Positions 1 to 29,562 of a DNA stretch of 29,562 nucleotides are shown here, in pieces; within the stretch, counting starts at the first letter, position 1; each line of letters begins with the position of its first letter. The DNA comes from Candidatus Aenigmatarchaeota archaeon (GTDB lineage Archaea > Aenigmatarchaeota > Aenigmatarchaeia > QMZP01): positions 1-29,562 of the forward strand of contig QMZZ01000001.1 of assembly GCA_003663445.1 (NCBI GenBank), read 5' to 3'. The notes beneath the pieces are model-generated. The model saw nothing but the letters and a program-made list of their open reading frames with translations, searched no databases and had not been told where the DNA came from. Made by a program: the position numbers and the translations under genes.

Positions 1-5
1 GTTAT

Positions 6-134
6 ATCCATATGTAGTAATTTTTATCCAGAAAAATCCATATTTAGTAAAAATATAACAGCGTTATTAAAATAAATATACCCACACCCCCAGATAAAAA
101 ATAAAAAAAGAAAAAATAAAAAAATAAAAAAAAA
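6..134. repeat. Left half of candidate origin: 15-bp direct repeats, one arm of a 20-bp inverted repeat, A-tract
   Basis: atccatatgtagtaa (6-20) and atccatatttagtaa (36-50). aatataacagcgttattaaa (52-71) matches the reverse complement of 29517-29536 at 19/20. A-tract at about 96-134. Confidence 0.7.
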
Positions 135-142
135 TTTAAATA
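135..142 (+). promoter_or_regulatory. Archaeal TATA box, leaderless promoter for 162
   Basis: TTTAAATA starts 27 nt upstream of ATG 162, with no RBS in between. Confidence 0.7.
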
Positions 143-161
143 CCCTTGGATAAATATAGAT

Positions 162-470
162 ATGGTGGTAAAGCTCGGTGACCTGGAGAAGTTCGTGGCG
201 GATGTGAAGAACAGGACGGGGTTCTGGTTCGAGATACCGGACAAGGAGCTCAAAAAGGAGATAGCGAGGAGGTTCGGCATAAGCAATTACATCCAGAAAA
301 ACATCATAACAGCTTTAGAGGAGTACGGGCTGATAGAGAGGAAAAACCTGAACGTCTGGAAGTGGGCTGCAAACGGCCAGCCGGAAGAAAACAAGGAAGA
401 TCAGGAAGCCGAAAAGGAGGCCGACGAGCTGATAGAGAAGCTCGATAATGCAAAGGCCGAAGAAAAATGA
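162..470 (+). CDS. Winged-helix DNA-binding protein with acidic C-terminal tail
   Basis: ELKKEIARRFGIS...IITALEEYGLIER...VWKW fits a wHTH pattern; the last 30 aa are E/K/A-rich. Confidence 0.55.
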   Translation: MVVKLGDLEKFVADVKNRTGFWFEIPDKELKKEIARRFGISNYIQKNIITALEEYGLIERKNLNVWKWAANGQPEENKEDQEAEKEADELIEKLDNAKAEEK

Positions 471-655
471 TAGCTCTGGTGCTCAGGTGCCCTCACTGCA
501 GGAGGGAGCAGAAGTACGTGAACTACTTGGTTAGGAGAAGGGATGAGATTTTCGGTAAGAGAAGGGCATGTGTCTGGTGCGGAAAGAGGTTCACGATAAA
601 ATCAGCGAAGCAGGACAACATAGTCAGGGAGATTTGCTTTTTCGGGAGAGGCTAA
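467..655 (+). CDS. Zinc-ribbon protein
   Basis: CPHC...CVWC; ATGA overlap with the upstream gene. Confidence 0.7.
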   Translation: MIALVLRCPHCRREQKYVNYLVRRRDEIFGKRRACVWCGKRFTIKSAKQDNIVREICFFGRG

Positions 656-1932
656 AATTCGATCAGGGTTTTCTGCGAGATTAATGGCTTTATTCTCTTT
701 TCAGCCATCCTGACATACTTCGGGCTGGCTTCTATTCCTATAAATCTCCTTCCAAGCTTTATAGCAACCAGAGCAGTGGTTCCGGTGCCTATAAAGGGAT
801 CGAGAACTATTCCGGGTTCCCACTCATCATTACACTCGCAGCTCTCCCATTTCTGTCTCGGCTTGCCACATTTACTGCATACATATTGAGGACATCCAGC
901 CAAGATCATAGGTTCAACCAACTTTTCCGGGAAATGGGCGAAATGAGCTTCGGGAAAGGCTTGGGTAGGAACGCTCCAAAAATCGCCGGGGTTGGCACCT
1001 TTTAGATCGTTTTTCAAATCTTTTGAAGGGAAGCCTTTTTTGTAGAATGTCTCCCTGATCTTGCTTTTAACAATGTTTTCCAGCAAGACAAAAGGGTTCT
1101 GAGAATCCGGGTTTATTTTGTGCTTGCTTGGGTCGAAATGCTCTTGATTTTTTATAAACCTGACTATACGTTTTATCGTTTCGGGTGACAGCGGTTTTCT
1201 CACTGAATCGAGATCGAAGAAATATTTTTTGTTTTTAACGAACATAAAAATCGGTTCATAAGTTGTTGTGAATCTATCTTTTACCGACTCAGGCTTGTGG
1301 TTCGGTTTAAACCAAATGATTACATTCCTCAATATAAACCCTAATTCATCCACACAGCGAATAACAAACCTGAAATTTTGAAGTGCCATGCATTTAGGAG
1401 TTATACTTGCGTTAGGTGGCTTTCCTTTAATATATCTCTCATCTATTCCTGCTGGTTTTTGGAAACCTGTTTTGCTTGGATGTTTTGCACCCCAACCTTG
1501 CAGTGAACCACCATAGCAATCCCCATGATTCCAAAAAATAACCCCTCTCTTCTTAAGAACTCTTTTTAGTTCTCGCATTATTTCCAAAAGATGGTCAAGA
1601 TATAAATCTAAAGTCGGTTCAAGTCCTAATTGACCATACCAAGCACCACATTTTTTGCAGAACATTCCGAGGGACAGGTGAGCGGATGGTATGCTCTTTT
1701 TCCGTTTTCCATCATCGTTTCCTCCCGATACCCATTCATGTTCGCAGTTTGGATCTCCATCCCAAACTCTCCACGTCTCTTGACCGTAGTTTCTCAGTCC
1801 CCAGTACGGCGGTGAGGTGATAATGCAGTCAACTGATTCATCTGGCAGCTTTTTGAGAACTTCGAGTGCATCGCCCAGAACAATCTGATTTACAGGCAAA
1901 TCTCCCGGCTTAAGGTCTTCTGCCCTTATCAT
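652..1932 (-). CDS. Beta-class N4-cytosine/N6-adenine DNA methyltransferase (N6_N4_Mtase family), orphan
   Basis: N-terminal catalytic motif IV TSPPY, C-terminal SAM-binding motif I DPFIGTGTT, GRRFIGIE; inserted Cys-pair segments. Confidence 0.92.
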   Translation of the reverse strand: MIRAEDLKPGDLPVNQIVLGDALEVLKKLPDESVDCIITSPPYWGLRNYGQETWRVWDGDPNCEHEWVSGGNDDGKRKKSIPSAHLSLGMFCKKCGAWYGQLGLEPTLDLYLDHLLEIMRELKRVLKKRGVIFWNHGDCYGGSLQGWGAKHPSKTGFQKPAGIDERYIKGKPPNASITPKCMALQNFRFVIRCVDELGFILRNVIIWFKPNHKPESVKDRFTTTYEPIFMFVKNKKYFFDLDSVRKPLSPETIKRIVRFIKNQEHFDPSKHKINPDSQNPFVLLENIVKSKIRETFYKKGFPSKDLKNDLKGANPGDFWSVPTQAFPEAHFAHFPEKLVEPMILAGCPQYVCSKCGKPRQKWESCECNDEWEPGIVLDPFIGTGTTALVAIKLGRRFIGIEASPKYVRMAEKRIKPLISQKTLIEF

Positions 1933-2013
1933 TTTTTAAAAACTCCTCAAGAAAGGTTTGCCTTGAATGGTCGTCCCAGTACGGGCTGCACATCCTTCTC
2001 CTGAGCCTTTTTT

Positions 2014-2187
2014 TCATACCAAATCCTTAAACATGGACGGGTAGCACTTGTAGGCCTTGACGAACTTCTCTATGGTCTTCTTGTACCCGCCCAGCTCGAC
2101 AGATATCTTCTTGAACTCCACCTTGAGATCCTCTGGAACAACTATCTTTATGACTGACTTTTGGGAACTTGGTAACCTTTCTACCAT
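2014..2187 (-). CDS. Ribbon-helix-helix-like transcription regulator (57 aa, not in ORF track)
   Basis: Manual translation MVERLPSSQKSVIKIVVPEDLKVEFKKISVELGGYKKTIEKFVKAYKCYPSMFKDLV: beta-strand plus two helices. TATA 29 nt upstream; divergent from the capsid operon. Confidence 0.6.
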   Translation of the reverse strand: MVERLPSSQKSVIKIVVPEDLKVEFKKISVELGGYKKTIEKFVKAYKCYPSMFKDLV

Positions 2188-2264
2188 ATATATTTTTATA
2201 CTCTGGGGTATTTAAATCTTTACAGAGAGAGCGATCAAAAAAATGAAAGGAGGGTAAAAAGGGA

Positions 2265-2783
2265 ATGCCTGTTTCCACGAAGTTCACCCTCGAGCAGGCA
2301 CGGGCCCTTGAGGAAAAGCTCAAGGAAGAGCTGATCCGAAGGGCAATCGAGCAGAAAGTGATCACCTCGAGGGAAGAAGCGGTGATCAGGGACATAATCC
2401 CTGACGTCGATCTCGGGGCAACCAGAAACGTCTGGGAGCAGACCCTCGCAACCGCAGACGCCTACAACGACGTCTACAGTGTAACCCTTCCAGACAAGAA
2501 GGTCATCGGGTTCTACGGCTTCAAGACAAAGGCCTCGACCCCCGTGGTCACAGCGGTAAAGTTTGCCCTGGGTACCGGCGGGGCAAAGGTCAAGGACATC
2601 TGGCAGGTTGAGACGGCACACACCGAGCTCAACGCAGAGGCAAGGGCAATAGTGCCCATCATCTACAACAAGTCCGAGACAGTAACGATCAGCATGTACA
2701 ACTCAGGGTCAGCAGGTGCGACTGACAACGTGATTCTCCTCGGGTTCGTGGTCGAGCCGAAGGGTGAGCTCGTAACGCAGTAG
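2265..2783 (+). CDS. Candidate major capsid protein 1 (single jelly-roll) with N-terminal helical arm
   Basis: First gene of the structural operon, RBS GGAGGG. About 40-aa amphipathic helix followed by alternating beta-strand pattern, ending LLGFVVEPKG. The fold is inferred. Confidence 0.55.
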   Translation: MPVSTKFTLEQARALEEKLKEELIRRAIEQKVITSREEAVIRDIIPDVDLGATRNVWEQTLATADAYNDVYSVTLPDKKVIGFYGFKTKASTPVVTAVKFALGTGGAKVKDIWQVETAHTELNAEARAIVPIIYNKSETVTISMYNSGSAGATDNVILLGFVVEPKGELVTQ

Positions 2784-2793: not shown

Positions 2794-2886
2794 ATGCCAA
2801 GGAAAAAGAAGGAAGGGGAGCAAGACAGACCGACTTCCCCGATAGGGGTAGTCAATAGACTCAAGCTAAAAAAGTTAAGGAGGTAA
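2794..2886 (+). CDS. Basic 30-aa microprotein
   Basis: MPRKKKEGEQDRPTSPIGVVNRLKLKKLRR; RBS GGAGGG upstream; fills the gap between the two capsid candidates. Confidence 0.55.
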   Translation: MPRKKKEGEQDRPTSPIGVVNRLKLKKLRR

Positions 2887-2889: not shown

Positions 2890-3387
2890 ATGGGCTACAT
2901 CCACAAGGTAGACCTGGAACCGGTAGCTCTGCCTGGAGAGAACATAGTGATCCTGCCGGACAACAAGCCCTTCAGGGTCGCCTGGATTGAGCCCCTGCCC
3001 GCGATAGACAAGGACTTCGGCAGCCTCGCGGCCGGGGCCGAGACCGGGGACACGGAGGTCACGGACGTCTACACAGACGAGAACCAGCTCGTTCAGTTCA
3101 GGATAATACCCCTGGACGACGTCGAGGTCACGGTCAAGCAGCCGAGAGCCAAGGGAAGGTGGGTCACCAAGGTGGTTCAGGCAAAGCTCATAAAGGACAA
3201 CCCCCACGACAACCTCGCGGAGATGTTCCAGTTCGAGGACCGGGGCCTGTTCTTCAACGTGAAGAACCCGACCAGCTACACCCTTCCGGCCTCGAGGGTC
3301 AGGCTCGTCGGGTTCAGGTTCGTTCTCGAGCCGCTCTCCGAGATGCCGGAGAAAAAGACCTACGTGGTCGTGGGAGGAAACGAATAG
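2890..3387 (+). CDS. Candidate major capsid protein 2 (single jelly-roll)
   Basis: 165 aa, beta-strand-rich, RBS GGAGGT, similar in size to 2265..2783, ends RVRLVGFRFVLEP. Confidence 0.5.
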   Translation: MGYIHKVDLEPVALPGENIVILPDNKPFRVAWIEPLPAIDKDFGSLAAGAETGDTEVTDVYTDENQLVQFRIIPLDDVEVTVKQPRAKGRWVTKVVQAKLIKDNPHDNLAEMFQFEDRGLFFNVKNPTSYTLPASRVRLVGFRFVLEPLSEMPEKKTYVVVGGNE

Positions 3388-3399: not shown

Positions 3400-3720
3400 A
3401 TGGTCAGGAAAGGTGGTAATGCCTCGATAACCGCCGCCGACACCGACACCACGATCTACTCGGTGACTTCAGGAAGGGCCTTCGAGCCCAGTGTGATAAT
3501 AATAACGAACAACTCCGGCGCGACGGCGAGGGTCAGGATATGGGACGGTGCCTCCGCGACCGGAACCAAGTGGCTTGACGTGATGGTTGCCAACGGGGAG
3601 ACCGTCCAGCTCAACAACATAGAGGGAATGAGGTTCTACACCTCTGTGACGGCTCAGTCGGACAACGCCGGGGCAGAGCCCGCTCACGTCTGGGTCTTCG
3701 TCGGCGGGGAAGAGGAGTGA
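3400..3720 (+). CDS. Small beta-sandwich virion protein (penton/vertex-like)
   Basis: 106 aa, T/S/G/A/V-rich all-beta pattern (IIITNNSG..ARVRIWDG); RBS GGAGGTG. Confidence 0.55.
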   Translation: MVRKGGNASITAADTDTTIYSVTSGRAFEPSVIIITNNSGATARVRIWDGASATGTKWLDVMVANGETVQLNNIEGMRFYTSVTAQSDNAGAEPAHVWVFVGGEEE

Positions 3721-3764: not shown

Positions 3765-3866
3765 ATGGAAGAAAAAATGGAAGTCCTGGCCAGGAAGGGC
3801 GACAAGGAGCTCAGGGGCTACATTAAGTGCAACTACGGGAAGGTGAGGGTTGAGATAAAAGAATGA
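3765..3866 (+). CDS. Hypothetical 33-aa protein
   Basis: MEEKMEVLARKGDKELRGYIKCNYGKVRVEIKE; ATGA overlap with 3863; codon usage matches neighbours. Confidence 0.4.
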   Translation: MEEKMEVLARKGDKELRGYIKCNYGKVRVEIKE

Positions 3867-4321
3867 CCTGCACACTTTGGGAGGGGATACTGCTCAGGCA
3901 GTATTCCAACCTGGTGGAGGACCTGCAGATGGTTTTCGACATTCCTGGGAACACCTCGGTCACCCTTCGCTACAGCCCGCCTGAAAGGTATGTTTTCATA
4001 CCGATATACAGTGTTTCCGGCCGCCAGCCCTACGGGGAGCTGATGATCAGCGCATGGATAGACGGGGAAACCCTCTGGAGCAACATAGTGTCCTCGGCCT
4101 CCCTCGAGGTTTTGATGCCATCCTCGGACTTCAGGCCGGTCAAGAGGGAGATGAGGATGGACATAACCAACCTCTCATCCTCGACCAACACCGTGGACTT
4201 CCTCGTGGGCGGGGCCCTGATCAGGGTCGAGGACTACGGCCAGTTCGTGGAGGAGATAACCGGGAGGAAGCTTATCAGGAAGCTCGAGGAGCTCATAGAG
4301 GTTCTTAAAGGAAGGCGGTAA
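3863..4321 (+). CDS. Beta-rich minor virion protein with C-terminal helix
   Basis: Beta-strand pattern followed by RKLIRKLEELIEVLK; inside the structural cluster. Confidence 0.5.
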   Translation: MTCTLWEGILLRQYSNLVEDLQMVFDIPGNTSVTLRYSPPERYVFIPIYSVSGRQPYGELMISAWIDGETLWSNIVSSASLEVLMPSSDFRPVKREMRMDITNLSSSTNTVDFLVGGALIRVEDYGQFVEEITGRKLIRKLEELIEVLKGRR

Positions 4322-4330
4322 AAATAAAAT

Positions 4331-4696
4331 ATGGGCGAGTTCAGGGTAAACCCGGTCGAAATCTGGTCAGGCAGTTACAGGGCCGGGATTACCTCGGCCT
4401 CCAGGATCATGGTGGACGCCCTTCCGTCCCCGCTGACTTCCCCCACGATAGTAAACTTCACCACCAGCGGATCTTCCGCCTGGGAGCTGGCCGCCACCCT
4501 GCCCTCCACGGCAAGGTCCTTTACCATAAAGTGCAGGGACATGTCCGCGGAGATAGACTTCGCCTACTCCGCCTCCCCGAGCACCTGGATCACCCTCTGG
4601 CCGGGCCTGGTCTACTCCGTGGACGCCAGGCCCCCCGCCATCTACGTTAGGGACAGGGGGACCCCCGTGGTGGTCGAGATAGAGTACTGGGAGTGA
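4331..4696 (+). CDS. Small beta-sandwich virion protein
   Basis: 121 aa, S/T/A/P-rich all-beta pattern ending VVVEIEYWE. Confidence 0.5.
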   Translation: MGEFRVNPVEIWSGSYRAGITSASRIMVDALPSPLTSPTIVNFTTSGSSAWELAATLPSTARSFTIKCRDMSAEIDFAYSASPSTWITLWPGLVYSVDARPPAIYVRDRGTPVVVEIEYWE

Positions 4697-4697
4697 G

Positions 4698-5633
4698 ATG
4701 GCAAGAGCGATTTTCGTCGGGCTGAGAAGGACAGGAGATTCGGTTGGAACCGTTGATACAGGGACGTCTCTAAACAGGTACAGGTTCAACCAGCCCGCGG
4801 GGACGGTTCAGGACAACAACTCGGTGGTTTCCCTCGGCGGGGAGTACGACGGGTCCCTGGCGACCTTCGGCTTCCCGGCGAACACCCTCTCGGCCCAGCT
4901 GTTCTGCCAGGCGAGGAACGACGGGACCGCAACGATCTACGCCGGAGTGATGGGGTGGTGCGACACGAACAGGAACCCCTACGAGATGATAGCCGTGGGC
5001 GGGGCAGCCTACGGTGCGGGGGCCTACGGGCTTTACTTCGGCGGCGGAACCTCCGCGGACCCGATAGAGTGCCTGGCCTACATAGACGGGTACTCGAGCA
5101 ACCACGGGCTCTGGGTCAATCAGAGGTACTCCGGCTCTCCCGTGGCGACCTTTCAGTATTCCGGATCGTCCGTTCTGGAGATTCAGCACGACAGGGTGAA
5201 CATAAACGAAGACGTTTACTTCGGGACCGGTGGGATGATGATGAACCTCAGCCAAAACCAGGTGAAAGCTTCGCGGTTTACGACACTGGACAACAGCAAC
5301 GCCGAGTTCGCCGGAATGGGCTACGGGAGGCTGAAGTATTACGCCTCGTGCAGCTACTCACTCGGCTCCGCTCACAACTTCTACAGCTACATGACAGACG
5401 ACAACGTCGCGACGGTTTCCGTGGACACAACAACAAACGGCCACACGGTGAACAACCTGATAATCTTCAAGGTCGACGGAACGGAAAAATTCAGCATAAA
5501 TCCCGAGGGGATAGTGAACTACGCCGGATCCATGGGCGATTCAACAAAAGATCCCCGAACGGACGCTCCCGACGACTGGGTGGAAATAAAAATAAACGGG
5601 ACAACATATTATATTCCGGCATATTCAGCATGA
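4698..5633 (+). CDS. Fibre/spike-like virion protein
   Basis: G/S/T/N/Y-rich, 311 aa; C-terminal DWVEIKINGTTYYIPAY resembles fibre C-termini. Confidence 0.55.
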   Translation: MARAIFVGLRRTGDSVGTVDTGTSLNRYRFNQPAGTVQDNNSVVSLGGEYDGSLATFGFPANTLSAQLFCQARNDGTATIYAGVMGWCDTNRNPYEMIAVGGAAYGAGAYGLYFGGGTSADPIECLAYIDGYSSNHGLWVNQRYSGSPVATFQYSGSSVLEIQHDRVNINEDVYFGTGGMMMNLSQNQVKASRFTTLDNSNAEFAGMGYGRLKYYASCSYSLGSAHNFYSYMTDDNVATVSVDTTTNGHTVNNLIIFKVDGTEKFSINPEGIVNYAGSMGDSTKDPRTDAPDDWVEIKINGTTYYIPAYSA

Positions 5634-5848
5634 TAGAGATAGAGCCGAAACGGGATGAGAAGGGGAATATTGTTAGAGGAGTTTGGATACGCAAGGGCCT
5701 AACCGAGACCATAAACGAGACCCAGCTGAACATAGAGATATCCAGGCTCGAGAGGGCGGTGGACGACCTGAAGGCGAGGCTCGACTTCCTGAAGCGGGTC
5801 AGGGCCGAGATAGAGAGGCGAAAGGCGGAGCTCGAGAAGTCGGCATGA
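5630..5848 (+). CDS. Coiled-coil protein (72 aa), possible fibre chaperone
   Basis: ATGA overlap with the fibre gene; heptad pattern ISRLERAVDDLKARLDFLKR. Start re-called from the 4955 ORF. Confidence 0.6.
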   Translation: MIEIEPKRDEKGNIVRGVWIRKGLTETINETQLNIEISRLERAVDDLKARLDFLKRVRAEIERRKAELEKSA

Positions 5849-6060
5849 AGTACAGGGTGGAGAAGCTCGAGGACATCTACCAGCTCCTCAAGCCGGACCC
5901 AGACGGAGGATGGTTCAGGCAGGGGAGGAAGTACACCTGGAAGGGCCTTTTGAACAGGGCAGAAACCGCGGGGATGCAGGGGGACGAGCTCGAGAGGGGC
6001 TTCGGGCTGACCGACGAGGAGTGGGAGGCCGTTCTGGAGAGGTACGAGAGATTTAAATAA
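5845..6060 (+). CDS. Hypothetical helical protein (71 aa)
   Basis: ATGA overlap; start re-called at MKYRVEKLE. Confidence 0.6.
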   Translation: MKYRVEKLEDIYQLLKPDPDGGWFRQGRKYTWKGLLNRAETAGMQGDELERGFGLTDEEWEAVLERYERFK

Positions 6061-6077
6061 AAAGCCCAATTCTTAAT

Positions 6078-6974
6078 ATGGCTGTGTGGAGTGATGACTT
6101 CAGCGAGGATACGAGCCAGAACTACGCAATCCTGTGGAGAAATGTGACCGGCGGGCGCGGTTATGGAAACCCACCCGAATCCACAAGCATTACAGTTTCC
6201 GATGGATATTTGACAGCAGAAATTACGAACAGTGGCTACTGCAAGGGAATAGTTTACCTCAAGGCCAAGCCAACGGTAAATCCGCTGACAGAAAACTTTG
6301 TAATAGAGGTCAGGGGAAGGTCTCATGGTTGGGACGGGTTCGCGTCTGGCATAACCCTTGCGGTGGACAGGGTTCCAGAAGGAAGCGGAAATTTTGAAAA
6401 GTTTATAAGATTCGTTTACTCCACCTACCCGTCTCCGGATAGGATAGAGCTTCAAACCCATCAGAGAACCCTGGTAAGCATGGACTCTGATGTAGACACG
6501 GAAAAGACTATGTGCACCTTCGGGCCATGGAACAAATTTAGGATAGAGAAGGATGGCACCTGGTGGAAATTTTTTTTCAACGACAATCTTATCTGGGAGG
6601 GTGAAATTCCGGAAGCGGATGAGGAGATGTACATAGGCTTCACTGTGGATGTGACTTCAGGCGAATCCGGATGGACGGCAATAAACACTTACGATGATTA
6701 CTACTTCGCTCTTTATCCGTTTGGAGAAATAACCAACATCTCATCACCAAGCTCCGCCCACGCTGGGGATTCTCTGAGTGTTAGTGTAGATGTGAAAAAC
6801 ACCGGCTCGGATGGCACTATTTGGTGCAGGCTGGTGGACACCTACGACGACTCGGAGATAGGCATAAGACAGGAATCGTACCTTGCTTCCGAGGAAATAA
6901 AAACATTTTCTTGGGTTATAACCATGCCTAACAGGGACTTGACAGTTAGAGTCGAGGCAGGTCACGAGGAGTAG
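6078..6974 (+). CDS. ConA/LamG-like beta-sandwich plus C-terminal CARDB/Ig-like domain; putative adhesin
   Basis: N-terminal DDFS...FVIEVRGR...WNKFRIEKDG...IGF pattern. The C-terminal ~85 aa are closely similar to 9697..10011. Leaderless promoter. Confidence 0.6.
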   Translation: MAVWSDDFSEDTSQNYAILWRNVTGGRGYGNPPESTSITVSDGYLTAEITNSGYCKGIVYLKAKPTVNPLTENFVIEVRGRSHGWDGFASGITLAVDRVPEGSGNFEKFIRFVYSTYPSPDRIELQTHQRTLVSMDSDVDTEKTMCTFGPWNKFRIEKDGTWWKFFFNDNLIWEGEIPEADEEMYIGFTVDVTSGESGWTAINTYDDYYFALYPFGEITNISSPSSAHAGDSLSVSVDVKNTGSDGTIWCRLVDTYDDSEIGIRQESYLASEEIKTFSWVITMPNRDLTVRVEAGHEE

Positions 6975-7006
6975 AAAGTATTTAAATACCAAATCCAATT
7001 TTCGAT

Positions 7007-7267
7007 ATGGACGGAGTAAGCCTTCTGACCCTGGTGATAGTCGGCCTTCTGGCCGGCATAGTAAGGGGTCTGGTGGGCTGGCTGAAGTCGAGCAAGAAGG
7101 AGGACTTCGACTGCAAGAAGTTCGGAAGGACCCTGGTTCTGTCCGCCGTCCTCGGAGCGATACTCGGGCTTTACTGGGTGGGAGACCCGAAAAGCCTTTT
7201 CGCGACAGTGTTCCTCGGCGACGTGGTCATAGAGGACGTCCTCAAGGGATTCGTGAGGTCCAAGTGA
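7007..7267 (+). CDS. Small membrane protein (holin-like topology)
   Basis: Two or three hydrophobic segments separated by KSSKKEDFDCKK; TATA 26 nt upstream. Confidence 0.55.
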   Translation: MDGVSLLTLVIVGLLAGIVRGLVGWLKSSKKEDFDCKKFGRTLVLSAVLGAILGLYWVGDPKSLFATVFLGDVVIEDVLKGFVRSK

Positions 7268-7508: not shown

Positions 7509-8402
7509 CTACGCCTCGAGGTTGTTCGCCGAGACGGTGTTGGCCCCGTTCACGATTATCTGCCCCGAGGAGTTTCCCATGGCGAGGTTGCCCACTATTA
7601 GGTTGTAGTCGCTCCCGGTCTCCTCGTTTATCCCGTACCTCTGCCTCCCGTCAGTGGAAACCGCCTGGTTACCGACGAGAACGGAGTGCATGGTGTCGCT
7701 CAGCTTTATCCCGTCGGCGAACCCAGAGAAAGCCTGGGAGTTGTTCAGAACCTCGTTGCCCACGAGAACGCACCTCTCGCTCAGGCTGAAATTCATCCCG
7801 TTGAGCCTGTTCAGGCGGATGAAGTTCCCGGCGATCCTGACCCCGTTGGACTGGCTCACCGTCAGCCCGGTTCCGTTCCCGCTCAGGGTGTTCCCGCTCA
7901 GGAGGTTTCCGTCCGCCCTGAAAAGTATGACTCCGATGGAGCAGTCGGTGACAGAGCACCCCTCTATCGAGCAGGCGGTGGTGTTCTCGTCGAAGTATAT
8001 TCCCTCGTCCCTGCAGCCGCTCACCCGGCACCCCCTGACCGCTGAGCCGGTGGTCCCGCTGAAAAATATCCCGTGGGAGGTGGATGTCTGGCCGAACCCG
8101 TTCCCGTCCACGCTCAGGCTGCTTATCAGCACGTTTGAGACCCCAACGCACTTTATCGCATGGTCGTTTGCCCCGTCGTTCAGGTAAACTATCGTCGCCG
8201 GTCCGGACCCGATCAGGCTGACGTTTGACGGGACGACTATGCCCTCGTCTATGCGGTAGGTCCCCTCCTTGATGTAAACCACCCCGCCGGAGGACGGAAG
8301 GCTGTTTATCCCCTCCTGGATGTCCGTGGTGCTCCCGCTCCCGTCAGCCGCCACCAGGACCGTGGCAACCTTGGTGTCCCCGACAATCGACCTGACAGGC
8401 AT
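7509..8402 (-). CDS. Right-handed parallel beta-helix (pectin lyase-like) spike / receptor-binding protein
   Basis: N-terminal VAADGSG..DIQEGIN....GGVVYIKEGTY, then repeated ~22-aa coils (I.GN.L.GN..G). Confidence 0.85.
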   Translation of the reverse strand: MPVRSIVGDTKVATVLVAADGSGSTTDIQEGINSLPSSGGVVYIKEGTYRIDEGIVVPSNVSLIGSGPATIVYLNDGANDHAIKCVGVSNVLISSLSVDGNGFGQTSTSHGIFFSGTTGSAVRGCRVSGCRDEGIYFDENTTACSIEGCSVTDCSIGVILFRADGNLLSGNTLSGNGTGLTVSQSNGVRIAGNFIRLNRLNGMNFSLSERCVLVGNEVLNNSQAFSGFADGIKLSDTMHSVLVGNQAVSTDGRQRYGINEETGSDYNLIVGNLAMGNSSGQIIVNGANTVSANNLEA

Positions 8403-8704
8403 TACTCTCCCTCCCGGCGGGCCGAACCTCCCACCGACATCTCCTCGCTCCTCTCGATGAAGAGCTGCATGACCTTCCCGGGCTGGGCGGAGTTCGTCAC
8501 CAAGACGTCCTCAAAATCCATCTCGAAAACTATCATGGAGGGCCAGGTGAGCGGGCTCAGGGGTATGGCCGGGGACGTGGTGCTGTTGAACCTTATGGAC
8601 GCGCTCCCGGTCAGCCTGAAAACCGTCAGGGACTTTCCGGAAATCTTTAGGCTCTTGTTTGTCCTTTCGGTGTCCAGGCGGAGGGTAACGAAGTCGTAGG
8701 CCAT
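8402..8704 (-). CDS. Small beta-sandwich virion protein
   Basis: 100 aa all-beta pattern; stop overlaps the start of the beta-helix gene; TATA-like box upstream. Confidence 0.5.
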   Translation of the reverse strand: MAYDFVTLRLDTERTNKSLKISGKSLTVFRLTGSASIRFNSTTSPAIPLSPLTWPSMIVFEMDFEDVLVTNSAQPGKVMQLFIERSEEMSVGGSARREGE

Positions 8705-8725
8705 ATAAAGAATTTGCTCCCCCTT

Positions 8726-8926
8726 TTAATAAAACTTCTTGATTCCGAGAACGAAGCTGTCTACCGCGGACTCCTCGTCGTTCCCGTAGAACTCCAGGCC
8801 CCTCCACCTGACCCTGTACCTCCTCTCGGAGAGCTTCTCCACGTGGGCCACGTAGACCTCGCCGTCCACCTCGACGGAAACGGTCTTCCTCTCGAGGACC
8901 GGCCTGTACTCGATGTCGTGGCTCAT
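8726..8926 (-). CDS. Hypothetical protein (66 aa)
   Basis: Start re-called at MSHDIEY; ATGA overlap with the upstream micro-ORF. Confidence 0.55.
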   Translation of the reverse strand: MSHDIEYRPVLERKTVSVEVDGEVYVAHVEKLSERRYRVRWRGLEFYGNDEESAVDSFVLGIKKFY

Positions 8927-9033
8927 TTCTCGTATATTTTTAGCCTCTTGTAGATTTCCTTCTCCTTCTCCTCGTCCGGGTCCCCCAAAACGGACATCGC
9001 GATTCCAACCCCGACAAAAAGCCACCAGATCAT
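8923..9033 (-). CDS. 36-aa single-TM microprotein
   Basis: MIWWLFVGVGIAMSVLGDPDEEKEKEIYKRLKIYEK; ATGA overlaps at both ends. Confidence 0.55.
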   Translation of the reverse strand: MIWWLFVGVGIAMSVLGDPDEEKEKEIYKRLKIYEK

Positions 9034-9227
9034 ATCAGAAGGTTGGCTATCAGGGCCAGGAGCAGGGCGGTGTTAAAGCCGAACATGACCTTGGTTATTA
9101 TGTCGAGCTTTCCCTCCACCCTGCCGAGCCTTTTCTCGACGTCGCCTATCCTGTCGTGAAGGCTGACCACGCTTCTCAGCACAGCCTCCCCGTGGGATTC
9201 CATCGGGCAGTCCTTCTTCCCTTTCAT
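9030..9227 (-). CDS. Coiled-coil protein with C-terminal TM helix (65 aa)
   Basis: LHDRIGDVEKRLGRVEGKLD followed by VMFGFNTALLLALIANLLI. Confidence 0.6.
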   Translation of the reverse strand: MKGKKDCPMESHGEAVLRSVVSLHDRIGDVEKRLGRVEGKLDIITKVMFGFNTALLLALIANLLI

Positions 9228-9376
9228 AGCCTCTCCATGGCCACGCCTATCAGCAGGATCAGGAAGGCGAGGAACATCGCCCAGTAGGACCACTCCTTGC
9301 CGTAGCCCATCAGGGACGCCAGCGCCGACGCAGTCGAGGCCCAGAGGGTTATCCCCCTTACAGGAGTCGTTTTCAT
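9224..9376 (-). CDS. 50-aa two-TM membrane protein
   Basis: MKTTPVRGITLWASTASALASLMGYGKEWSYWAMFLAFLILLIGVAMERL; leaderless, TATA 28 nt upstream. Confidence 0.6.
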   Translation of the reverse strand: MKTTPVRGITLWASTASALASLMGYGKEWSYWAMFLAFLILLIGVAMERL

Positions 9377-9410
9377 ATTAAATTTTGGGTTTTCCCTTTT
9401 TAAATTTCGT

Positions 9411-10011: not shown

Positions 10012-10042
10012 ATTAAGACTTTGACCTGCCTATTTAAAAAGC

Positions 10043-11078: not shown

Positions 11079-11080
11079 GG

Positions 11081-18087: not shown

Positions 18088-18099
18088 GGCTATCCCTCC

Positions 18100-18474: not shown

Positions 18475-18535
18475 TTTTTTACACCTCCTATTTTTTAATT
18501 AATCAGAACCCCTTTAAATATTTTTTCCTTAACCA

Positions 18536-23215: not shown

Positions 23216-23848
23216 ATGCCCAGATTGAGCACGGAAACCATCAAGGAAATTAGGGATGCTCTTTCTCGGGGGGAGAAGTGGTCTGAAATCATGAAGAATT
23301 TTGGGATTTCAAAAAAAACCGTTTCCAGAATAGCGAAGCTCACGGATCAGGAGATCGAGGAGCTCGAGAAGAAGGAGCTGAAAAGCAAAACCGAAGAAAA
23401 GATCAGGGTAAGCAGGTATCCCGTACCATCTGGTCAGGTTGCGGTCAGGCGGGAGCTCGAGGATGAAATCGTGAAAAGGAGCACATCCGACATAGTTCAG
23501 GCCCTGGACATAGGGTATTGGTGCCTGAAAACCAGAATAAAGGACATAGCCGAGACCCTGGGGATGACCCCAAAAAAGCTGATCACCAGATCGGTAGGTT
23601 TTTACGTTTTCAGGAGAAAGGAATACCAGAAACTGGTTGAAAAATACGAGGGGTTAAAGGTTTTGGTAAAAAGGTTGCTTTTGTTACTCGCCCCTGAAAT
23701 CCAGAGGAGGCTGAAAATACGGATGCTTCTCCTGGCCATGTCTGTATATCTCAGGCACGGGGTCAAGCCCCCAGAGGAGCTGGTAAATGCGTTCAAGGAC
23801 GAGGTTATGGGTAACAAAAAGAAGGAGGAGGTGGTTGTGAATGGCTGA
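23216..23848 (+). CDS. N-terminal HTH DNA-binding protein with helical C-terminus
   Basis: IRDALSRGEKWSEIMKNFGISKKTVSRIAK is a classical HTH. Confidence 0.7.
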   Translation: MPRLSTETIKEIRDALSRGEKWSEIMKNFGISKKTVSRIAKLTDQEIEELEKKELKSKTEEKIRVSRYPVPSGQVAVRRELEDEIVKRSTSDIVQALDIGYWCLKTRIKDIAETLGMTPKKLITRSVGFYVFRRKEYQKLVEKYEGLKVLVKRLLLLLAPEIQRRLKIRMLLLAMSVYLRHGVKPPEELVNAFKDEVMGNKKKEEVVVNG

Positions 23849-24860
23849 AAAGGCGAAGGACGAGGAAGTGCTGGAGATAGTGAGTAAGGCCCTGGACAAG
23901 AGCAAGCCAGAGGTGATTTCTGACCTGGTGAATCTGCTTTCGGACATGGACGGGAAGCAACAGGGAGGGATCTCGGAGCTGGCGGAGCTCCTGAAGGAGA
24001 CCAAAGGGGACAAGGGAAGCGTGATCAAGGACGTGGTAGAGGCAATAGCTCTTGAAAGGCTGCTGAACAGGGACGGGGACGGCAACATAGTCAGGGATGT
24101 CTTGAGGTGGGCGATTCCGCTCAGGTATTTATCCCCCCTGATCTCTGGGCCGGAGCAGAAGGGCATGGACTTCAAGGACATGTTTTTGCTTATGAAGCTG
24201 GCCGACGGGGACAACAAGACCCTGGAGAGAATGCTTCAGTTCCAGCAGGAGCTGGAGAAAAGGAGGCTCGAGGAGCAGGGAAAGCAGCTCGAGGAGCTGA
24301 AGAACCTGCTCTGGGGAAAGCAGCTCGAGCAGACCAAAAAGGAGACTGAGCTGAAGATAGAGAGGATCGCCCAGGCCCTGGAGAGCCTGGAGCAGAGAAT
24401 AGCCCAGAACACAACACCAGAGGAAAGGAAAGGGCTCGTGGATCAGATCAGGGAGCTGAGCGAGATCAGGAAGGAGCTGAAAGGCCTCCTTGAGGACGAG
24501 TTCGGAGGCGGGGTCGTGGACAAGTCAGGGAAACCTAACTACGCCAAGCTGATAGAGCGGGGACTGAAGACGGTCGAGGAGATAGGGAAAAGCCTGGCAC
24601 AGAGAGCACCGCCACAGCAGCCCATCCAGCCCATGCCGATCCAAATCCAGCCGAGAATCGAGCAGGAACCCAAACCCGAACCCAGTGTCGAGCTGAAGGA
24701 AGAACCGAAGCCAGAACCGCAGGAAAAGCCAGAGGAGCAGAAATTCGAGTTCATAGCCGAGCCAGAGCCGACGCCGGACCAGAACCTCGACATAAAGCCA
24801 ACCAAGCTGCCAGAGGAAAACATAGAGGTCAAAGAGGATAAAAAGGAAGAAGGACAATAA
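23841..24860 (+). CDS. Large coiled-coil protein with Pro/Glu/Lys/Gln-rich disordered tail
   Basis: Long heptad regions; C-terminal EPKPEP-type low complexity. Confidence 0.65.
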   Translation: MAEKAKDEEVLEIVSKALDKSKPEVISDLVNLLSDMDGKQQGGISELAELLKETKGDKGSVIKDVVEAIALERLLNRDGDGNIVRDVLRWAIPLRYLSPLISGPEQKGMDFKDMFLLMKLADGDNKTLERMLQFQQELEKRRLEEQGKQLEELKNLLWGKQLEQTKKETELKIERIAQALESLEQRIAQNTTPEERKGLVDQIRELSEIRKELKGLLEDEFGGGVVDKSGKPNYAKLIERGLKTVEEIGKSLAQRAPPQQPIQPMPIQIQPRIEQEPKPEPSVELKEEPKPEPQEKPEEQKFEFIAEPEPTPDQNLDIKPTKLPEENIEVKEDKKEEGQ

Positions 24861-24865
24861 GATTT

Positions 24866-25243
24866 ATGGATGAAAGGGAAATCAGAAGGGTTTTCAGCAG
24901 TAGATCGAGGGTTCTCTCGCTCATAACCCTGGGGATAAAGCAGATAAGGGCGGAGGAGCTGGAAAATGCTATAAAAAGCGGGTTCGACCCGTCGCTCCTG
25001 ATCTTTAACCACCTGTCTGGCTACATGAACAACCCCATCCTGAAGCCGATTATAAGGGCCGGGTTGAGGAAGTGGTGGGGGGAGATAGAGTCGGTTCTGA
25101 CCGACGCGAGGAAGGTTTACGGAATCCTGACAGAAAACAGGCCGGACCTGAAAAGGATCCTCGACACGGAAAGGGGGAGAAGGTGGCTGAACTGGGCGGT
25201 TTACCAGAGCTATTCGAACCTGTATAGGTACACCTGGTTGTAA
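24866..25243 (+). CDS. Hypothetical helical protein
   Basis: 125 aa, operonic with flanking genes. Confidence 0.6.
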   Translation: MDEREIRRVFSSRSRVLSLITLGIKQIRAEELENAIKSGFDPSLLIFNHLSGYMNNPILKPIIRAGLRKWWGEIESVLTDARKVYGILTENRPDLKRILDTERGRRWLNWAVYQSYSNLYRYTWL

Positions 25244-25482
25244 TGCCAAGGCACGAGGTTCACAGGATGGTGGCGAAGGCGGTTCTCGGAAAGGCATACC
25301 CAGAGGTGGATAGGTTTCTCGACTGGCCCTACAAGATTCTGGGGCCAAGGCACAGGGTTCTTTTCCACGATCTGAAAACCACTCCTGCCATGGTGACACT
25401 GCTGACGGGCGACGTCAGAAAGGGGATGGCCGCGGCGGTTCACATTCTCCTGGACAAGACCTTCAGCAAACGAACCAGATAA
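25243..25482 (+). CDS. Putative minimal metal-dependent hydrolase (YdjM/DUF457-like His/Asp constellation)
   Basis: H7, D27, H37-R38, H42, H67, D71. Confidence 0.45.
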   Translation: MPRHEVHRMVAKAVLGKAYPEVDRFLDWPYKILGPRHRVLFHDLKTTPAMVTLLTGDVRKGMAAAVHILLDKTFSKRTR

Positions 25483-25813
25483 ACCTATCCCAGGGGAGGC
25501 CGTACACTTTCAGCTCCTTTTCGGACATGCTTTTGTTCGGGTAGAGAACCCAGACACCCTTCCTTTTGAACTTCACGACAAGAAAAGCCAGTCCGCCCTG
25601 ATCCATAAACCTCTCCATGAACTTCATCTCGCTTTCTGGCACCCTGATCCTGCTTCCAGATGAATACTTGCACTCGAACCCGAAGGTTTTACCGTCCTTG
25701 AGGGCGACCACATCTATTCCCCCGGATTTTGCAGACCTGATGACCACGAACCCGTGCTTTTTCAGCTCGTTCACAAGCCAGTTTTCAAATCTATATCCCT
25801 TCCTGTACCCCAT
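25463..25813 (-). CDS. hjc: Archaeal Holliday junction resolvase (PD-(D/E)xK)
   Basis: KGYRFE..LV..L...GF.VIRSAKSGGIDVVA...FGFECK. Confidence 0.85.
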   Translation of the reverse strand: MGYRKGYRFENWLVNELKKHGFVVIRSAKSGGIDVVALKDGKTFGFECKYSSGSRIRVPESEMKFMERFMDQGGLAFLVVKFKRKGVWVLYPNKSMSEKELKVYGLPWDRFIWFVC

Positions 25814-25991
25814 ATTTCTTACAGCGATAGATCACCATCTCGGCCCCGTCTGTCCTTATGGTGTCCTTGACCCCATATTGGCAGTATCTGCCGAAGTCGC
25901 AGTAATATTTTCCGTCCAGGGAGTACCCGAGAAAGATTATCCCGGCCTGGCACTTCCTTATTTTGTCTTCTGTGTGGTTATACTTTTTCAT
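25791..25991 (-). CDS. Cys-containing hypothetical protein
   Basis: Four Cys; overlaps both neighbours in operon. Confidence 0.5.
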   Translation of the reverse strand: MKKYNHTEDKIRKCQAGIIFLGYSLDGKYYCDFGRYCQYGVKDTIRTDGAEMVIYRCKKYGVQEGI

Positions 25992-26334
25992 AGCTTTCCA
26001 GCAGGTTTCCGGCGAGGTTTTCCCTCCTCGGAACCCATGTCAGTTTTATGTTTTTCTCCTCTATAAGTTTTTTCGCCTTCAGGAACAGGGGGAGCAGGTG
26101 CTGGGTTTTTACCCTCCAGCCCCGTTTCAGGTGCCCGACCAGGAGCTGGCTGTCCGTCAGTATCTCGTCCCCCGGGTCGGCGAGCTTGAGGGCGTTTATC
26201 AGGGCCTCGTATTCCATCTGGTTGTTGGTTCTTTCCTCCGGGATCGAGCCCCGCCTGATCGTCCCGTCCTCGAACACGACTATCCACTTCGATTCCCTTC
26301 CGTTCCAGCCCGAGCCGTCTATCCAGATTTTCAT
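25978..26334 (-). CDS. rnhA: Ribonuclease HI-like protein
   Basis: IDGS (D6), TNNQMEY (E41), TDSQLL (D61), WVPRREN. Confidence 0.85.
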   Translation of the reverse strand: MKIWIDGSGWNGRESKWIVVFEDGTIRRGSIPEERTNNQMEYEALINALKLADPGDEILTDSQLLVGHLKRGWRVKTQHLLPLFLKAKKLIEEKNIKLTWVPRRENLAGNLLESYEKV

Positions 26335-28449: not shown

Positions 28450-28460
28450 GCTATCACCTC

Positions 28461-28556
28461 CTATTCCTTTTCTCCGAAGTCGAGCAGGATGGTTGCCTCA
28501 CCCAGCTTCACTTCCAGCTTCCCGCTCACCTTCACTTTTGCCTTTTTCCTTTTCAT
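28461..28556 (-). CDS. 31-aa basic microprotein
   Basis: MKRKKAKVKVSGKLEVKLGEATILLDFGEKE; RBS GGAGGG; overlaps the 3' end of 28498..28947. Confidence 0.4.
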   Translation of the reverse strand: MKRKKAKVKVSGKLEVKLGEATILLDFGEKE

Positions 28557-28947
28557 ACCAAACACCCTCCTTTATCCAGAGCTCGAACTGGTCCGCGAGC
28601 CTTTTCACCTGCCTGACCCTCTCCTCGTAGATCATTCCGTTCACTCCAGACAGAAGTATTGTCGCGTCCCTGAGGGCGGACATCCTGATCATCCTCTCCT
28701 CCCTGCCGTCCAGGTCAGCTTTCTCCTCCTGAACCTCCTCGGCGGATATTATGCGTGGATACTTCCCCTCGAGGATCTCTACTTTCAACTTTTTCCCGGG
28801 CTTCAGCAGCCCGAAAAGGGCCTTGTCCCAGACGTAAAAGACATCCCCGTTTGACTTCACGATCAGGTAGTCGTTCCCGGACTCGGTTCTCTTTTTGGTT
28901 ATATCCGACACGGTTATCGTTCTCGTTCCCATGTTTTTCTCAGGCAT
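28498..28947 (-). CDS. Putative OB-fold ssDNA-binding protein with helical C-terminal domain
   Basis: Five-strand OB-like N-terminus (ITVSDITKKRTESGNDYLIVKSNGDVFYVWD...LKPGKKLKVEI), then IRMSALRDA helix. Confidence 0.45.
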   Translation of the reverse strand: MPEKNMGTRTITVSDITKKRTESGNDYLIVKSNGDVFYVWDKALFGLLKPGKKLKVEILEGKYPRIISAEEVQEEKADLDGREERMIRMSALRDATILLSGVNGMIYEERVRQVKRLADQFELWIKEGVWYEKEKGKSEGEREAGSEAG

Positions 28948-29218
28948 ATCCCAACCTCCTCATTTTTATGTATTCCGTGACCGCGAGGATGTGGGAGCAG
29001 ACCAGGCCCTTGGTTCTGTTGTACTGGCAGGAGCACCTGAAGAAGCTGCCGTCCGAGGTGACCTCGTAGGTCGTTTTGTTGTATCCCGGGATGGGCCTGA
29101 CTATCCAGGATTTGGGGCCGACCTGAACCACACAGCCGTTCTCTATGAAGGCCCGAACCTTGTTCCTGACAGATCCGACCATTCCCTTTCCAACCTCGTA
29201 CCTGATTATTTCTTCCAT
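28940..29218 (-). CDS. SWIM zinc-finger protein
   Basis: FRCSCQYNRTKGLVCSHILAV; start re-called at MEEIIRY. Confidence 0.75.
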   Translation of the reverse strand: MEEIIRYEVGKGMVGSVRNKVRAFIENGCVVQVGPKSWIVRPIPGYNKTTYEVTSDGSFFRCSCQYNRTKGLVCSHILAVTEYIKMRRLGYA

Positions 29219-29397
29219 ACCAGCTTCACCCTCCTTGTCTCGAGCATGTTTATCTTGCCGTCCCTCGCGAGTATCTCGCACCACTTCAGGAAGGTCGCGT
29301 AGCTTATCCTGTCCGAGACGAGCTTCCAGACCGCATGTATGCTCTCCGGCTTTTCGAAGCTGCTCACGGCCTCGAGCACAATTTTTGATTTGTTCAT
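29206..29397 (-). CDS. Winged-helix DNA-binding protein (63 aa)
   Basis: ESIHAVWKLVSDRISYATFLKWCEILARDGKI...KLVW; first gene of the leftward operon. Confidence 0.6.
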   Translation of the reverse strand: MNKSKIVLEAVSSFEKPESIHAVWKLVSDRISYATFLKWCEILARDGKINMLETRRVKLVWKK

Positions 29398-29411
29398 GTT
29401 AATAATTGTAA

Positions 29412-29435
29412 TAACTAATATTTAAAGTTTTCGGT
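29412..29435 (-). promoter_or_regulatory. BRE+TATA early promoter
   Basis: Reverse complement is accgaaaactttaaatattagtta; TATA 29 nt upstream of ATG 29397. Confidence 0.8.
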
Positions 29436-29554
29436 TTTTTTATTTTTTTCTTTTTTTATTTTTTTATTTTTTTTTCCTTTTTTATTTTTTTTAAATAGGG
29501 GGGTATTTGATAAAAGTTTAATAACACTGTTATATTCATATTATGTAATTTTTT
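29435..29554. repeat. Right half of candidate origin: T-tract, inverted-repeat arm, degenerate direct repeat
   Basis: T-tract 29435-29492; tttaataacactgttatatt 29517-29536; attcatattatgtaa 29534-29548 (12/15 to 36-50). Confidence 0.7.
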
Positions 29555-29562
29555 ACGTGATA

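What the first reader, a model, noticed from the sequence alone, without database searches (positions are those of the whole stretch)
1..29562. Candidate new archaeal virus lineage: two SJR-like capsid genes but no packaging ATPase, polymerase or integrase
Seen: a self-contained genome with capsid-, spike- and membrane-type genes, and no Walker-A protein, PolB, primase/helicase or recombinase in any ORF I could read. Known: Halopanivirales pair two single-jelly-roll MCPs with an A32-like ATPase. Portogloboviruses (SPV1) have one SJR MCP, an inner membrane and a nucleoprotein-coated circular genome without a recognised packaging ATPase. Inference: this genome combines two MCP candidates with ATPase-free, nucleoprotein-driven assembly, a combination I do not recognise from a described family.
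Basis: partly seen in the sequence, partly recalled or inferred. Interest (0 to 1): 0.85.

Follow-up and report, generated by a model that had tools for sequence, protein, structure and literature searches.

The report
Tailless archaeal virus without packaging motor
This 29.6-kb contig from a hydrothermal sediment is most likely the genome of an undescribed tailless archaeal virus whose shell protein resembles that of Sulfolobus polyhedral virus 1, has no DNA-packaging motor, and belongs to a large unnamed family.

Summary
The window is a whole contig, binned in a 0.57-Mb Aenigmatarchaeota (DPANN) genome, with archaeal promoters and ribosome-binding sites. No P-loop motif occurs in any real frame. 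Pfam and PHROGs scans of all six-frame ORFs find no ATPase, polymerase, primase or integrase.

A defines a large family with no Pfam, PHROGs or NCBIfam match: 546 clusters at 50% identity. A and B are adjacent in nine independent elements. The A gene was duplicated and fused at least three or four separate times.

- SPV1 itself has two jelly-roll shell proteins, so the layout has a precedent.
- Three relatives encode a small RecA/Sak4-like ATPase that the window lacks.
- The window does encode an Hjc resolvase and an RNase H.

Host, genome topology and nucleoprotein-driven assembly remain inferred. The scan earlier noted SPV1-like, motor-less elements on other, bacterial DNA.

The parts
1..161 (.). 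Left non-coding end: degenerate ~30-nt direct repeats, a 20-bp palindrome-containing arm (52-71), an A-tract with 8-nt period (96-134) and a TTTAAATA box (135-142)
652..1932 (-). N6/N4 DNA methyltransferase (426 aa)
   Evidence: Pfam PF01555, E 2.9e-45; phrog_67
2265..2783 (+). Protein A, 172 aa: N-terminal helix plus 8-strand jelly roll; candidate major capsid protein
2794..2886 (+). 30-codon basic micro-ORF with its own GGAGG site, between A and B
   Evidence: pI 11.5 and upstream GGAGG. Not conserved at this place in the relatives examined.
2890..3387 (+). Protein B, 165 aa: jelly-roll-like beta sandwich; candidate second shell protein (penton or minor capsid protein)
3400..3720 (+). Protein C, 106 aa beta protein, conserved after B
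   Evidence: Homologs in L004, L006, L007 and L009. The Atlas holds a model with pTM 0.80; its nearest clusters are labelled viral.
3863..7267 (+). Rest of the structural operon: 152-, 121- and 311-aa beta-rich proteins, a 298-aa protein with a CARDB-like C-terminus, and an 86-aa membrane protein
7509..8402 (-). NosD/right-handed beta-helix protein (297 aa); candidate spike or receptor-binding protein
   Evidence: Pfam PF05048, E 1.2e-27. PHROGs tail-spike families were hit in the all-ORF scan but not mapped to an ORF. Homolog in L006.
8402..13308 (-). Block of small, CARDB-like and membrane-anchored proteins (candidate virion membrane and surface proteins)
   Evidence: inverted DNA repeat 6815-6874 / 9797-9856
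13807..14989 (+). 81-aa CarboxypepD_reg-like domain protein (13807-14052) and a trypsin-like serine protease with a C-terminal TM anchor (14054-14989, 311 aa)
   Evidence: phrog_20754, E 5.6e-45. 34% identical to the Aeropyrum coil-shaped virus protease. CarboxypepD_reg appears in the all-ORF scan; assigning it to 13807-14052 rests on its match to L019's CarboxypepD_reg-bearing protein. TM at residue 279.
16768..17553 (-). GT2 glycosyltransferase
   Evidence: Pfam PF00535, E 3.6e-21
17728..18892 (-). Conserved 119-aa protein and two paralogous basic proteins (pI 10.5 and 11.2); candidate DNA-condensing proteins
   Evidence: Paralogy 40% over 85 aa; pI values; homologs in L004, L006, L007 and L012
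21456..23215 (.). Low-GC island (0.34-0.37) with GGTTTCC heptamer arrays flanking an orphan 253-aa gene (21939-22700); candidate replication or control region
23216..25482 (+). HTH regulator (210 aa), a 339-aa acidic coiled-coil protein, and conserved 125-aa and 79-aa basic proteins
25463..26334 (-). Hjc-type Holliday junction resolvase (25463-25813), a 66-aa ORF (25791-25991) and RNase H (25978-26334)
   Evidence: Pfam PF01870, E 4.6e-15, and PF00075, E 2.4e-10
29403..29562 (.). Right non-coding end: inward promoter, T-tract and the complementary 20-bp arm (29517-29536)

Best explanation
The contig is the complete or near-complete dsDNA genome of an undescribed tailless, membrane-containing archaeal virus from hydrothermal sediment.

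Inferred roles of the genes:
- Protein A (2265-2783) is the major shell protein, a single jelly roll with an N-terminal helix built like VP4 of Sulfolobus polyhedral virus 1.
- B, and perhaps C, are further shell or vertex proteins.
- The beta-helix and CARDB-like proteins are surface spikes.
- The many tail-anchored proteins populate a lipid layer.
- The anchored serine protease and the glycosyltransferase mature and decorate the particle.

Inferred mechanism: with no P-loop ATPase, the DNA is probably not pumped into a preformed shell. It would be condensed by small basic proteins (18100-18892) and then enclosed by membrane and shell, as proposed for SPV1. Replication would use host enzymes, helped by the viral RNase H and Hjc resolvase. 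It may start at the repeat-rich ends or at the heptamer-array island.

Shown here: the folds, the missing enzyme families, the conservation of the A-B(-C) module, and the size of the family. Inferred: the capsid role, the assembly route and the host.
For: Virus-like genome:
- It is a whole contig with repeat-bearing non-coding ends and archaeal TATA and GGAGG signals.
- Fragments at 95-100% identity occur in a second study's hydrothermal-vent metagenome.

Protein A:
- AF2 gives pLDDT 79 and pTM 0.77: a helix plus an 8-strand sandwich.
- Foldseek also returns viral jelly-roll capsids, including IBDV VP2, HCIV-1 and SPMV.
- Atlas clusters with the same fold (TM 0.77-0.84) are labelled viral. The best AlphaFold DB cluster (TM 0.76) and the fourth-ranked one (TM 0.64) carry automatic 'major capsid protein' names.

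Conservation:
- A is followed by B in 9 independent elements of 7-47 kb, and by C in 5-7 of them.
- The A gene is single, tandemly duplicated or fused. The halves of three fused forms are sister to each other (support 100/100, 100/99, 99/94). A fourth joins the A1 and A2 paralogs.

Missing motor.

Other virion-type genes: beta-helix spike, CARDB modules, protease shared with Aeropyrum coil-shaped virus, GT2, and at least 11 TM proteins.
Against: - No sequence or profile similarity to any solved chain, SPV1 included.
- B's matches are generic.
- The A+B complex prediction gave no answer.
- No particle, no CRISPR spacer match and no host link beyond binning. The contig's tetranucleotide correlation to the rest of the bin is 0.81, against a median of 0.95.
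- Topology and completeness are unknown, so a gene could be missing if the ends are incomplete.
- Three relatives encode a RecA/Sak4-like ATPase.
- The Atlas 'Uroviricota' labels, if correct, would point to tailed phages.
Confidence: 0.6

Rival explanations
1. It is a virus of the two-MCP type (Helvetiavirae-like), in which A and B form heteromeric capsomers. The packaging ATPase is then too divergent to see, is supplied in trans, or has been lost in this genome.
For: There are two adjacent jelly-roll genes of about 170 aa, as in P23-77 and the haloarchaeal sphaerolipoviruses, and HCIV-1 MCP is among the Foldseek hits. Relatives carry up to three such genes, A1, A2 and B. Some relatives have a 208-236-aa P-loop ATPase, the size of A32-like packaging enzymes.
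Against: That ATPase scores only for AAA_24 (Sak4), AAA_25, KaiC and RecA, which are recombination-type families, and not for FtsK/HerA. In L004 and L006 it lies seven genes upstream of A, not adjacent. The window has no homolog in any frame and no Walker A at all. SPV1, not a helvetiavirus MCP, is the top structural match. A and B show no profile similarity.
Confidence: 0.12
2. It is a non-viral mobile element, a plasmid or similar. The A-B-C module would then build a cell-surface or other oligomeric structure, such as a jelly-roll pilus like Ena or a lectin, rather than a capsid.
Against: There is no conjugation or secretion ATPase and no partition system. The module travels with spike-like beta-helix proteins, a virus-type protease and many small membrane proteins in 7-47-kb elements. 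Atlas clusters with the fold are labelled viral. Repeated duplication and fusion is the pattern known for capsomer proteins.
Confidence: 0.15
3. A and B are accessory or vertex proteins. The real major capsid protein is another unrecognised ORF, for example the 311-aa or 322-aa protein, possibly of a new fold. Alternatively the particle is enveloped and pleomorphic, with no icosahedral shell.
For: Only two of about 60 ORFs could be folded here. The genome is rich in membrane proteins. Viruses from hot environments often have unique virion proteins. The protease is shared with a coil-shaped virus.
Against: A and B head the operon with strong GGAGG sites and are the most widely conserved genes of the group. 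The 311-aa protein has no relatives among the eight related loci compared, none in IMG/VR, and only weak fibre-like leads.
Confidence: 0.1

Closest known systems
Portogloboviridae (Sulfolobus polyhedral virus 1 and 2)
   Different: No detectable sequence or profile similarity. The genome is 29.6 kb rather than 20 kb, and its topology is unresolved with inverted-repeat ends. It comes from hydrothermal sediment and is binned with an Aenigmatarchaeota genome, not Sulfolobales. It also encodes Hjc, RNase H, a serine protease and a beta-helix protein. No mini-CRISPR array was seen. The family is far larger and shows MCP-gene duplication and fusion.
Helvetiavirae (Halopanivirales: Sphaerolipoviridae, Simuloviridae, Matsushitaviridae)
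   Same: Adjacent small jelly-roll capsid-type genes and a probable internal membrane. Relatives of the window have duplicated A genes, which recalls the proposed duplication of an SPV1-like MCP gene (PMC8812541).
   Different: The defining FtsK/HerA (A32-like) packaging ATPase next to the MCP genes is absent. Helvetiavirus MCPs are not among the top structural matches in the wide search.
Spiraviridae (Aeropyrum coil-shaped virus)
   Same: A homologous trypsin-like serine protease (34% identity, E 2e-24; phrog_20754).
   Different: Only this one gene is shared. As recalled, not tested here: ACV is a circular ssDNA virus with a coil-shaped nucleoprotein virion and no jelly-roll capsid.
SPV1-like motor-less jelly-roll elements noted earlier in this scan in bacterial genomes (e1-2127278, e1-2301437)
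   Same: Tailless, jelly-roll shell genes, one made by duplication, no packaging ATPase, tail-anchored membrane proteins, and SPV1 as the closest known virus.
   Different: They lie in other genomes and other hosts (Bacteroidales and another bacterium). No shared short words with protein A were found. Homology to this family was not tested.

Membership tests
Portogloboviridae | Single-jelly-roll MCP homologous to SPV1 VP4 | tested here: inconclusive
Portogloboviridae | Second SJR protein forming pentons (VP10) | tested here: inconclusive
Portogloboviridae | No genome-packaging ATPase, polymerase or replication initiator | tested here: met
Portogloboviridae | Circular dsDNA genome of about 20 kb | tested here: inconclusive
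   The contig is 29,562 bp. Its ends carry imperfect inverted and direct repeats but no exact overlap. The laid contigs break in the A-tract.
Portogloboviridae | Nucleoprotein (VP1) core and internal lipid membrane | not testable with these tools
   Only candidates exist: basic paralogs at 18100-18892 and at least 11 TM proteins.
Portogloboviridae | Gene content shared with SPV1/SPV2; host in Sulfolobales | tested here: not met
   No similarity to the solved SPV1 chains. The SPV1 record was not in the collection. The source is sediment and hydrothermal-vent metagenomes, and the contig sits in an Aenigmatarchaeota bin.
Helvetiavirae (two-SJR-MCP viruses) | FtsK/HerA-type packaging ATPase encoded beside two SJR MCP genes | tested here: not met
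   No Walker A in any ORF and no ATPase family.
Bamfordvirae (double-jelly-roll MCP viruses) | Double-jelly-roll MCP plus A32-like ATPase | tested here: not met
   A is a single 172-aa jelly roll. Fused double-A proteins occur only in relatives. There is no ATPase.
Caudoviricetes (tailed viruses) | HK97-fold MCP, portal and large terminase | tested here: not met
   No such family in Pfam or PHROGs scans of all ORFs. The largest ORF is the 426-aa methyltransferase.

The most novel reading that the evidence does not exclude
Protein A marks a large, undescribed assemblage of packaging-motor-less jelly-roll viruses. It is found in DPANN and Thermoproteota genome bins, and possibly in bins of small-celled bacteria. 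It would be the missing wider kin of the so far isolated Portogloboviridae. Within it, the shell gene has gone from single to tandem pair to fused double several separate times. That would be a living series for how double-jelly-roll-like capsomers arise from single jelly rolls, independent of the known double-jelly-roll viruses.
Probability: 0.3. Interest if true: 0.85.

Novelty: new variant of a known kind. Interest (0 to 1): 0.7.

Why it matters
Portogloboviridae currently has two members, both from Saccharolobus (order Sulfolobales). They have been proposed to resemble the ancestor of the two-MCP helvetiaviruses (PMC8812541).

A family of hundreds of sequence clusters with an SPV1-like shell protein and no motor would give that idea real comparative material. 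It would also extend motor-less icosahedral-type viruses well beyond hot acid springs. It may provide the first shell-bearing virus candidate linked, weakly, to Aenigmatarchaeota.

The recurrent duplication and fusion of the shell gene makes the single-to-double jelly-roll transition directly testable by structure prediction and expression. The family is not recognised by Pfam, PHROGs or NCBIfam, so such genomes are probably missed by marker-based virus finders.

Tried and rejected
Searches that found nothing:
- Megablast of 25 kb, and tblastn of A, against the phage and archaeal-virus collection: no match.
- IMG/VR scans with A, the 311-aa protein and alignment A1: no relative. Alignment A4 was too diverse for that tool.
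- Profiles of A (8 and 142 sequences) and B against PDB sequences: nothing meaningful.
- Pfam, PHROGs and NCBIfam on A, B, C and their neighbours: no family.
- hhalign of A against B: no relation.
- BFVD Foldseek for A: only generic jelly rolls, TM at most 0.46. Atlas shape search for B: nothing above TM 0.51.
- Word-based homolog search for B and for the 253-aa orphan: only themselves. B relatives were found instead in loci and in AlphaFold DB clusters.

Host and topology:
- No CRISPR array in the assembly.
- Short DNA matches in 16 genomes of the phylum are low-complexity and not inside arrays.
- Laying Logan contigs did not settle the topology, because the contigs break in the A-tract.

Other:
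- The A+B complex prediction returned 'no answer' (score 0.00). This is evidence neither for nor against binding.
- The SPV1 papers PMC6842630 and PMC5469268, and record KY780159, were not available.
- Rejected: tailed virus (no terminase, portal or HK97 protein) and integrated provirus (whole contig, no integrase, no tRNA).
- The apparent junction of a related element with bacterial mreBCD genes in L010 begins inside a gene. It may be an assembly chimera, so it was not used as evidence of a bacterial host.
Full report
**What the window is.** The 29,562-bp window is the entire contig C1 of a 574-kb, 111-contig, 71%-complete assembly. A contig of a sister genome in the same class (G145:C94) is identical to a record titled Candidatus Aenigmatarchaeota. 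The bin is therefore a DPANN archaeon of that phylum.

The contig is a compositional outlier in the bin. Its tetranucleotide correlation to the rest is 0.81, against a median of 0.95, at similar GC. The bin has no CRISPR array.

The DNA comes from a sediment metagenome. Fragments at 95-100% identity, covering 26 of 30 bins of the first 20 kb, occur in a hydrothermal-vent metagenome of a second study. The element is therefore real and not an assembly artefact.

Genes carry archaeal TTTAAATA boxes and GGAGGTG ribosome-binding sites. There are no tRNA genes, and there is no nucleotide match in the phage and archaeal-virus collection.

**Ends.** Both ends are about 160 nt of non-coding DNA with inward-facing promoters. 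Each has a 20-bp arm holding a short palindrome (52-71 and 29517-29536, 19 of 20 complementary) and A/T tracts with an 8-nt period. The last roughly 30 nt also resemble the first roughly 30 nt as a degenerate direct repeat.

It equally fits a linear genome with imperfect terminal repeats. There is no exact terminal overlap, and the public contigs break in the A-tract. Topology stays open.

**Missing enzymes.** No Walker A motif occurs in any credible frame, and looser patterns give nothing. Three family scans find no ATPase, polymerase, primase, helicase or integrase: Pfam on 30 selected ORFs, Pfam on all 144 six-frame ORFs of at least 58 aa, and PHROGs on the same set.

Two weak PHROGs hits need comment. 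The 'DNA invertase' hit is just the HTH of the 210-aa regulator. A 'DNA helicase' hit at E 1.9e-4 could not be traced to an ORF.

The scans do find these genes:
- an N6/N4 DNA methyltransferase;
- a NosD/beta-helix protein, and CARDB-like modules;
- a CarboxypepD_reg-like domain protein;
- a GT2 glycosyltransferase;
- HTH, zinc-ribbon and SWIM proteins;
- an Hjc Holliday-junction resolvase and an RNase H.

At least 11 proteins have predicted transmembrane segments, several at the extreme C-terminus.

**The two capsid candidates.** Protein A (2265-2783) was modelled with 8 homologs. The model has pLDDT 79 and pTM 0.77, and shows a 21-residue N-terminal helix followed by an eight-strand sandwich.

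The matched chains, A and T, are the same 178-residue protein. Because it occurs in many copies in the entry, I infer that it is VP4, the hexamer-forming MCP. This was not checked against the entry's own annotation.

**A large unnamed family.** A profile of A finds 546 clusters (50%-identity representatives) at E of 1e-3 or better, and 251 at 1e-10 or better. Most members are 165-200 aa. None of 142 members hits a Pfam family above noise. Neither A nor the relatives tested (P0157, L004 A1, P0113) match NCBIfam, and A has no PHROGs match.

ESM-Atlas clusters with the same fold (TM 0.77-0.84) are labelled as viral. So are those of protein C, one of which has 1,528 members. The 'Uroviricota' tags rest on few members, and no tailed-virus hallmark appears in any context I read. 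The best AlphaFold DB cluster for A (TM 0.76) and the fourth-ranked one (TM 0.64) carry automatic 'major capsid protein' names. That is a lead, not evidence.

I read the contexts of nine independent elements: the window, L004, L006, L007, L009/L010, L011/L012, L014, L018 and L019. A is followed by a B homolog in all nine, and by a C homolog in five to seven.

Other genes recur among the relatives:
- the 119-aa protein at 17728;
- the basic proteins at 18100 and 18536;
- the 125-aa and 79-aa proteins at 24866 and 25243;
- the protease and the beta-helix protein.

Relatives sit in an Aenigmatarchaeota bin, a Nitrososphaeria bin and hydrothermal or sediment metagenomes. Only 3 of 371 genomes of the phylum carry A. 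That suits a mobile element rather than a cellular gene.

**Duplication and fusion of A.** The closest relatives have two A paralogs in tandem, A1 and A2. Others have fused double-A proteins of 331-426 aa.

In a maximum-likelihood tree, the two halves of three fused proteins are each other's closest relatives. Support is 100/100 for P0042, 100/99 for L009 and 99/94 for P0025. The halves of P0006 fall with A1 and A2 respectively.

The gene was therefore doubled at least three or four separate times, unless gene conversion mimics this. Such behaviour is what one expects of a subunit of hexameric capsomers drifting toward pseudo-hexameric trimers. That link is an inference.

**The ATPase caveat.** L004 and L006 (208 aa) and L014 (236 aa) encode a small P-loop protein with Walker A and an hhhhDS Walker B motif. 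It scores weakly for AAA_24 (Sak4), AAA_25 and KaiC in L004 and L006, and for AAA_24, RecA and AAA_25 in L014.

This looks like a recombination or replication protein, not an FtsK/HerA packaging enzyme. Its role is nonetheless unknown. A profile of these three proteins finds nothing in any frame of the window. The window really lacks it, but 'no ATPase' is not a trait of the entire group.

**Other links.** The protease matches phrog_20754 (E 5.6e-45). It is 34% identical to the serine protease of Aeropyrum coil-shaped virus. A 36-40% homolog lies on contig C85 of the same bin.

The two basic proteins are paralogs, 40% identical over 85 aa. The 253-aa gene inside the low-GC, heptamer-array island has no relative anywhere.

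**Reading.** The best explanation (about 0.6) is an SPV1-like, membrane-containing, tailless virus that encloses protein-condensed DNA without a motor and replicates with host enzymes plus its own RNase H and Hjc. The rivals are:
- a helvetiavirus-like two-MCP virus with a missing motor (0.12);
- a non-viral element whose jelly rolls build another structure (0.15);
- a virus whose true major protein is a different ORF (0.10).

Its interpretation is partly supported. The genome is a new lineage and SPV1 is the right comparator. However, SPV1 already pairs two jelly-roll shell proteins with no ATPase (PMC8459092), and B is not shown to be a second MCP.

I found no paper describing this family in the library searched. 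That library lacks most subscription journals. Earlier reports of this scan describe SPV1-like motor-less elements in bacterial genomes. Their relation to this family is untested.

Noticed in passing
L004:6465-7091, L006:4383-5006, L014:15648-16358(-): Three relatives encode a 208-236-aa RecA/Sak4/KaiC-like P-loop ATPase (Walker A GxPFVGKS or GPQGAGKT; Walker B LLIVDS or LIVVDS) that has no counterpart in the window.
   Followed up: partly
window 21456-23215: Low-GC island (0.34-0.37) with arrays of GGTTTCC heptamers in both orientations. They lie on either side of a 253-aa gene that has no relative in 5.8 billion proteins. It could be an iteron-type replication or control region.
   Followed up: partly
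window 6815-6874 and 9797-9856: A 60-nt inverted DNA repeat (82%) that encodes the same CARDB-like motif (WCRLVDTYD..EIG.RQE) in two genes on opposite strands.
   Followed up: no
L010:1-3700 versus L009: One copy of a related element adjoins mreB, mreC, mreD and a PBP-dimer gene (bacterial genes). The 99.6% identity to the other copy starts inside that PBP-like ORF. This may be an integration into a bacterial chromosome or an assembly chimera.
   Followed up: partly
window 14054-14989; G000 contig C85:1535-2200: The anchored serine protease has a 36-40% homolog on another small contig of the same bin and a 34% homolog in Aeropyrum coil-shaped virus.
   Followed up: partly
window 1262-1656: Inside the methyltransferase gene, contigs of other much more abundant organisms in the same run (depth up to about 180, against 17 for the element) align at 85-95%. 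The gene is shared with or acquired from cells of the community.
   Followed up: no
window 26684-27564: Three tandem small genes share DNA blocks (27023-27062 versus 27306-27345 at 88%; 27126-27160 versus 27445-27479 at 77%) and short protein motifs, but differ in between.
   Followed up: no
AlphaFold DB clusters matched by model B: Proteins with the fold of B (TM 0.60-0.77) have accession series that I recall, unchecked, as belonging to a candidate-phyla-radiation bacterial bin, marine-sediment records and viral-metagenome records. This hints that the module is not confined to archaea.
   Followed up: no
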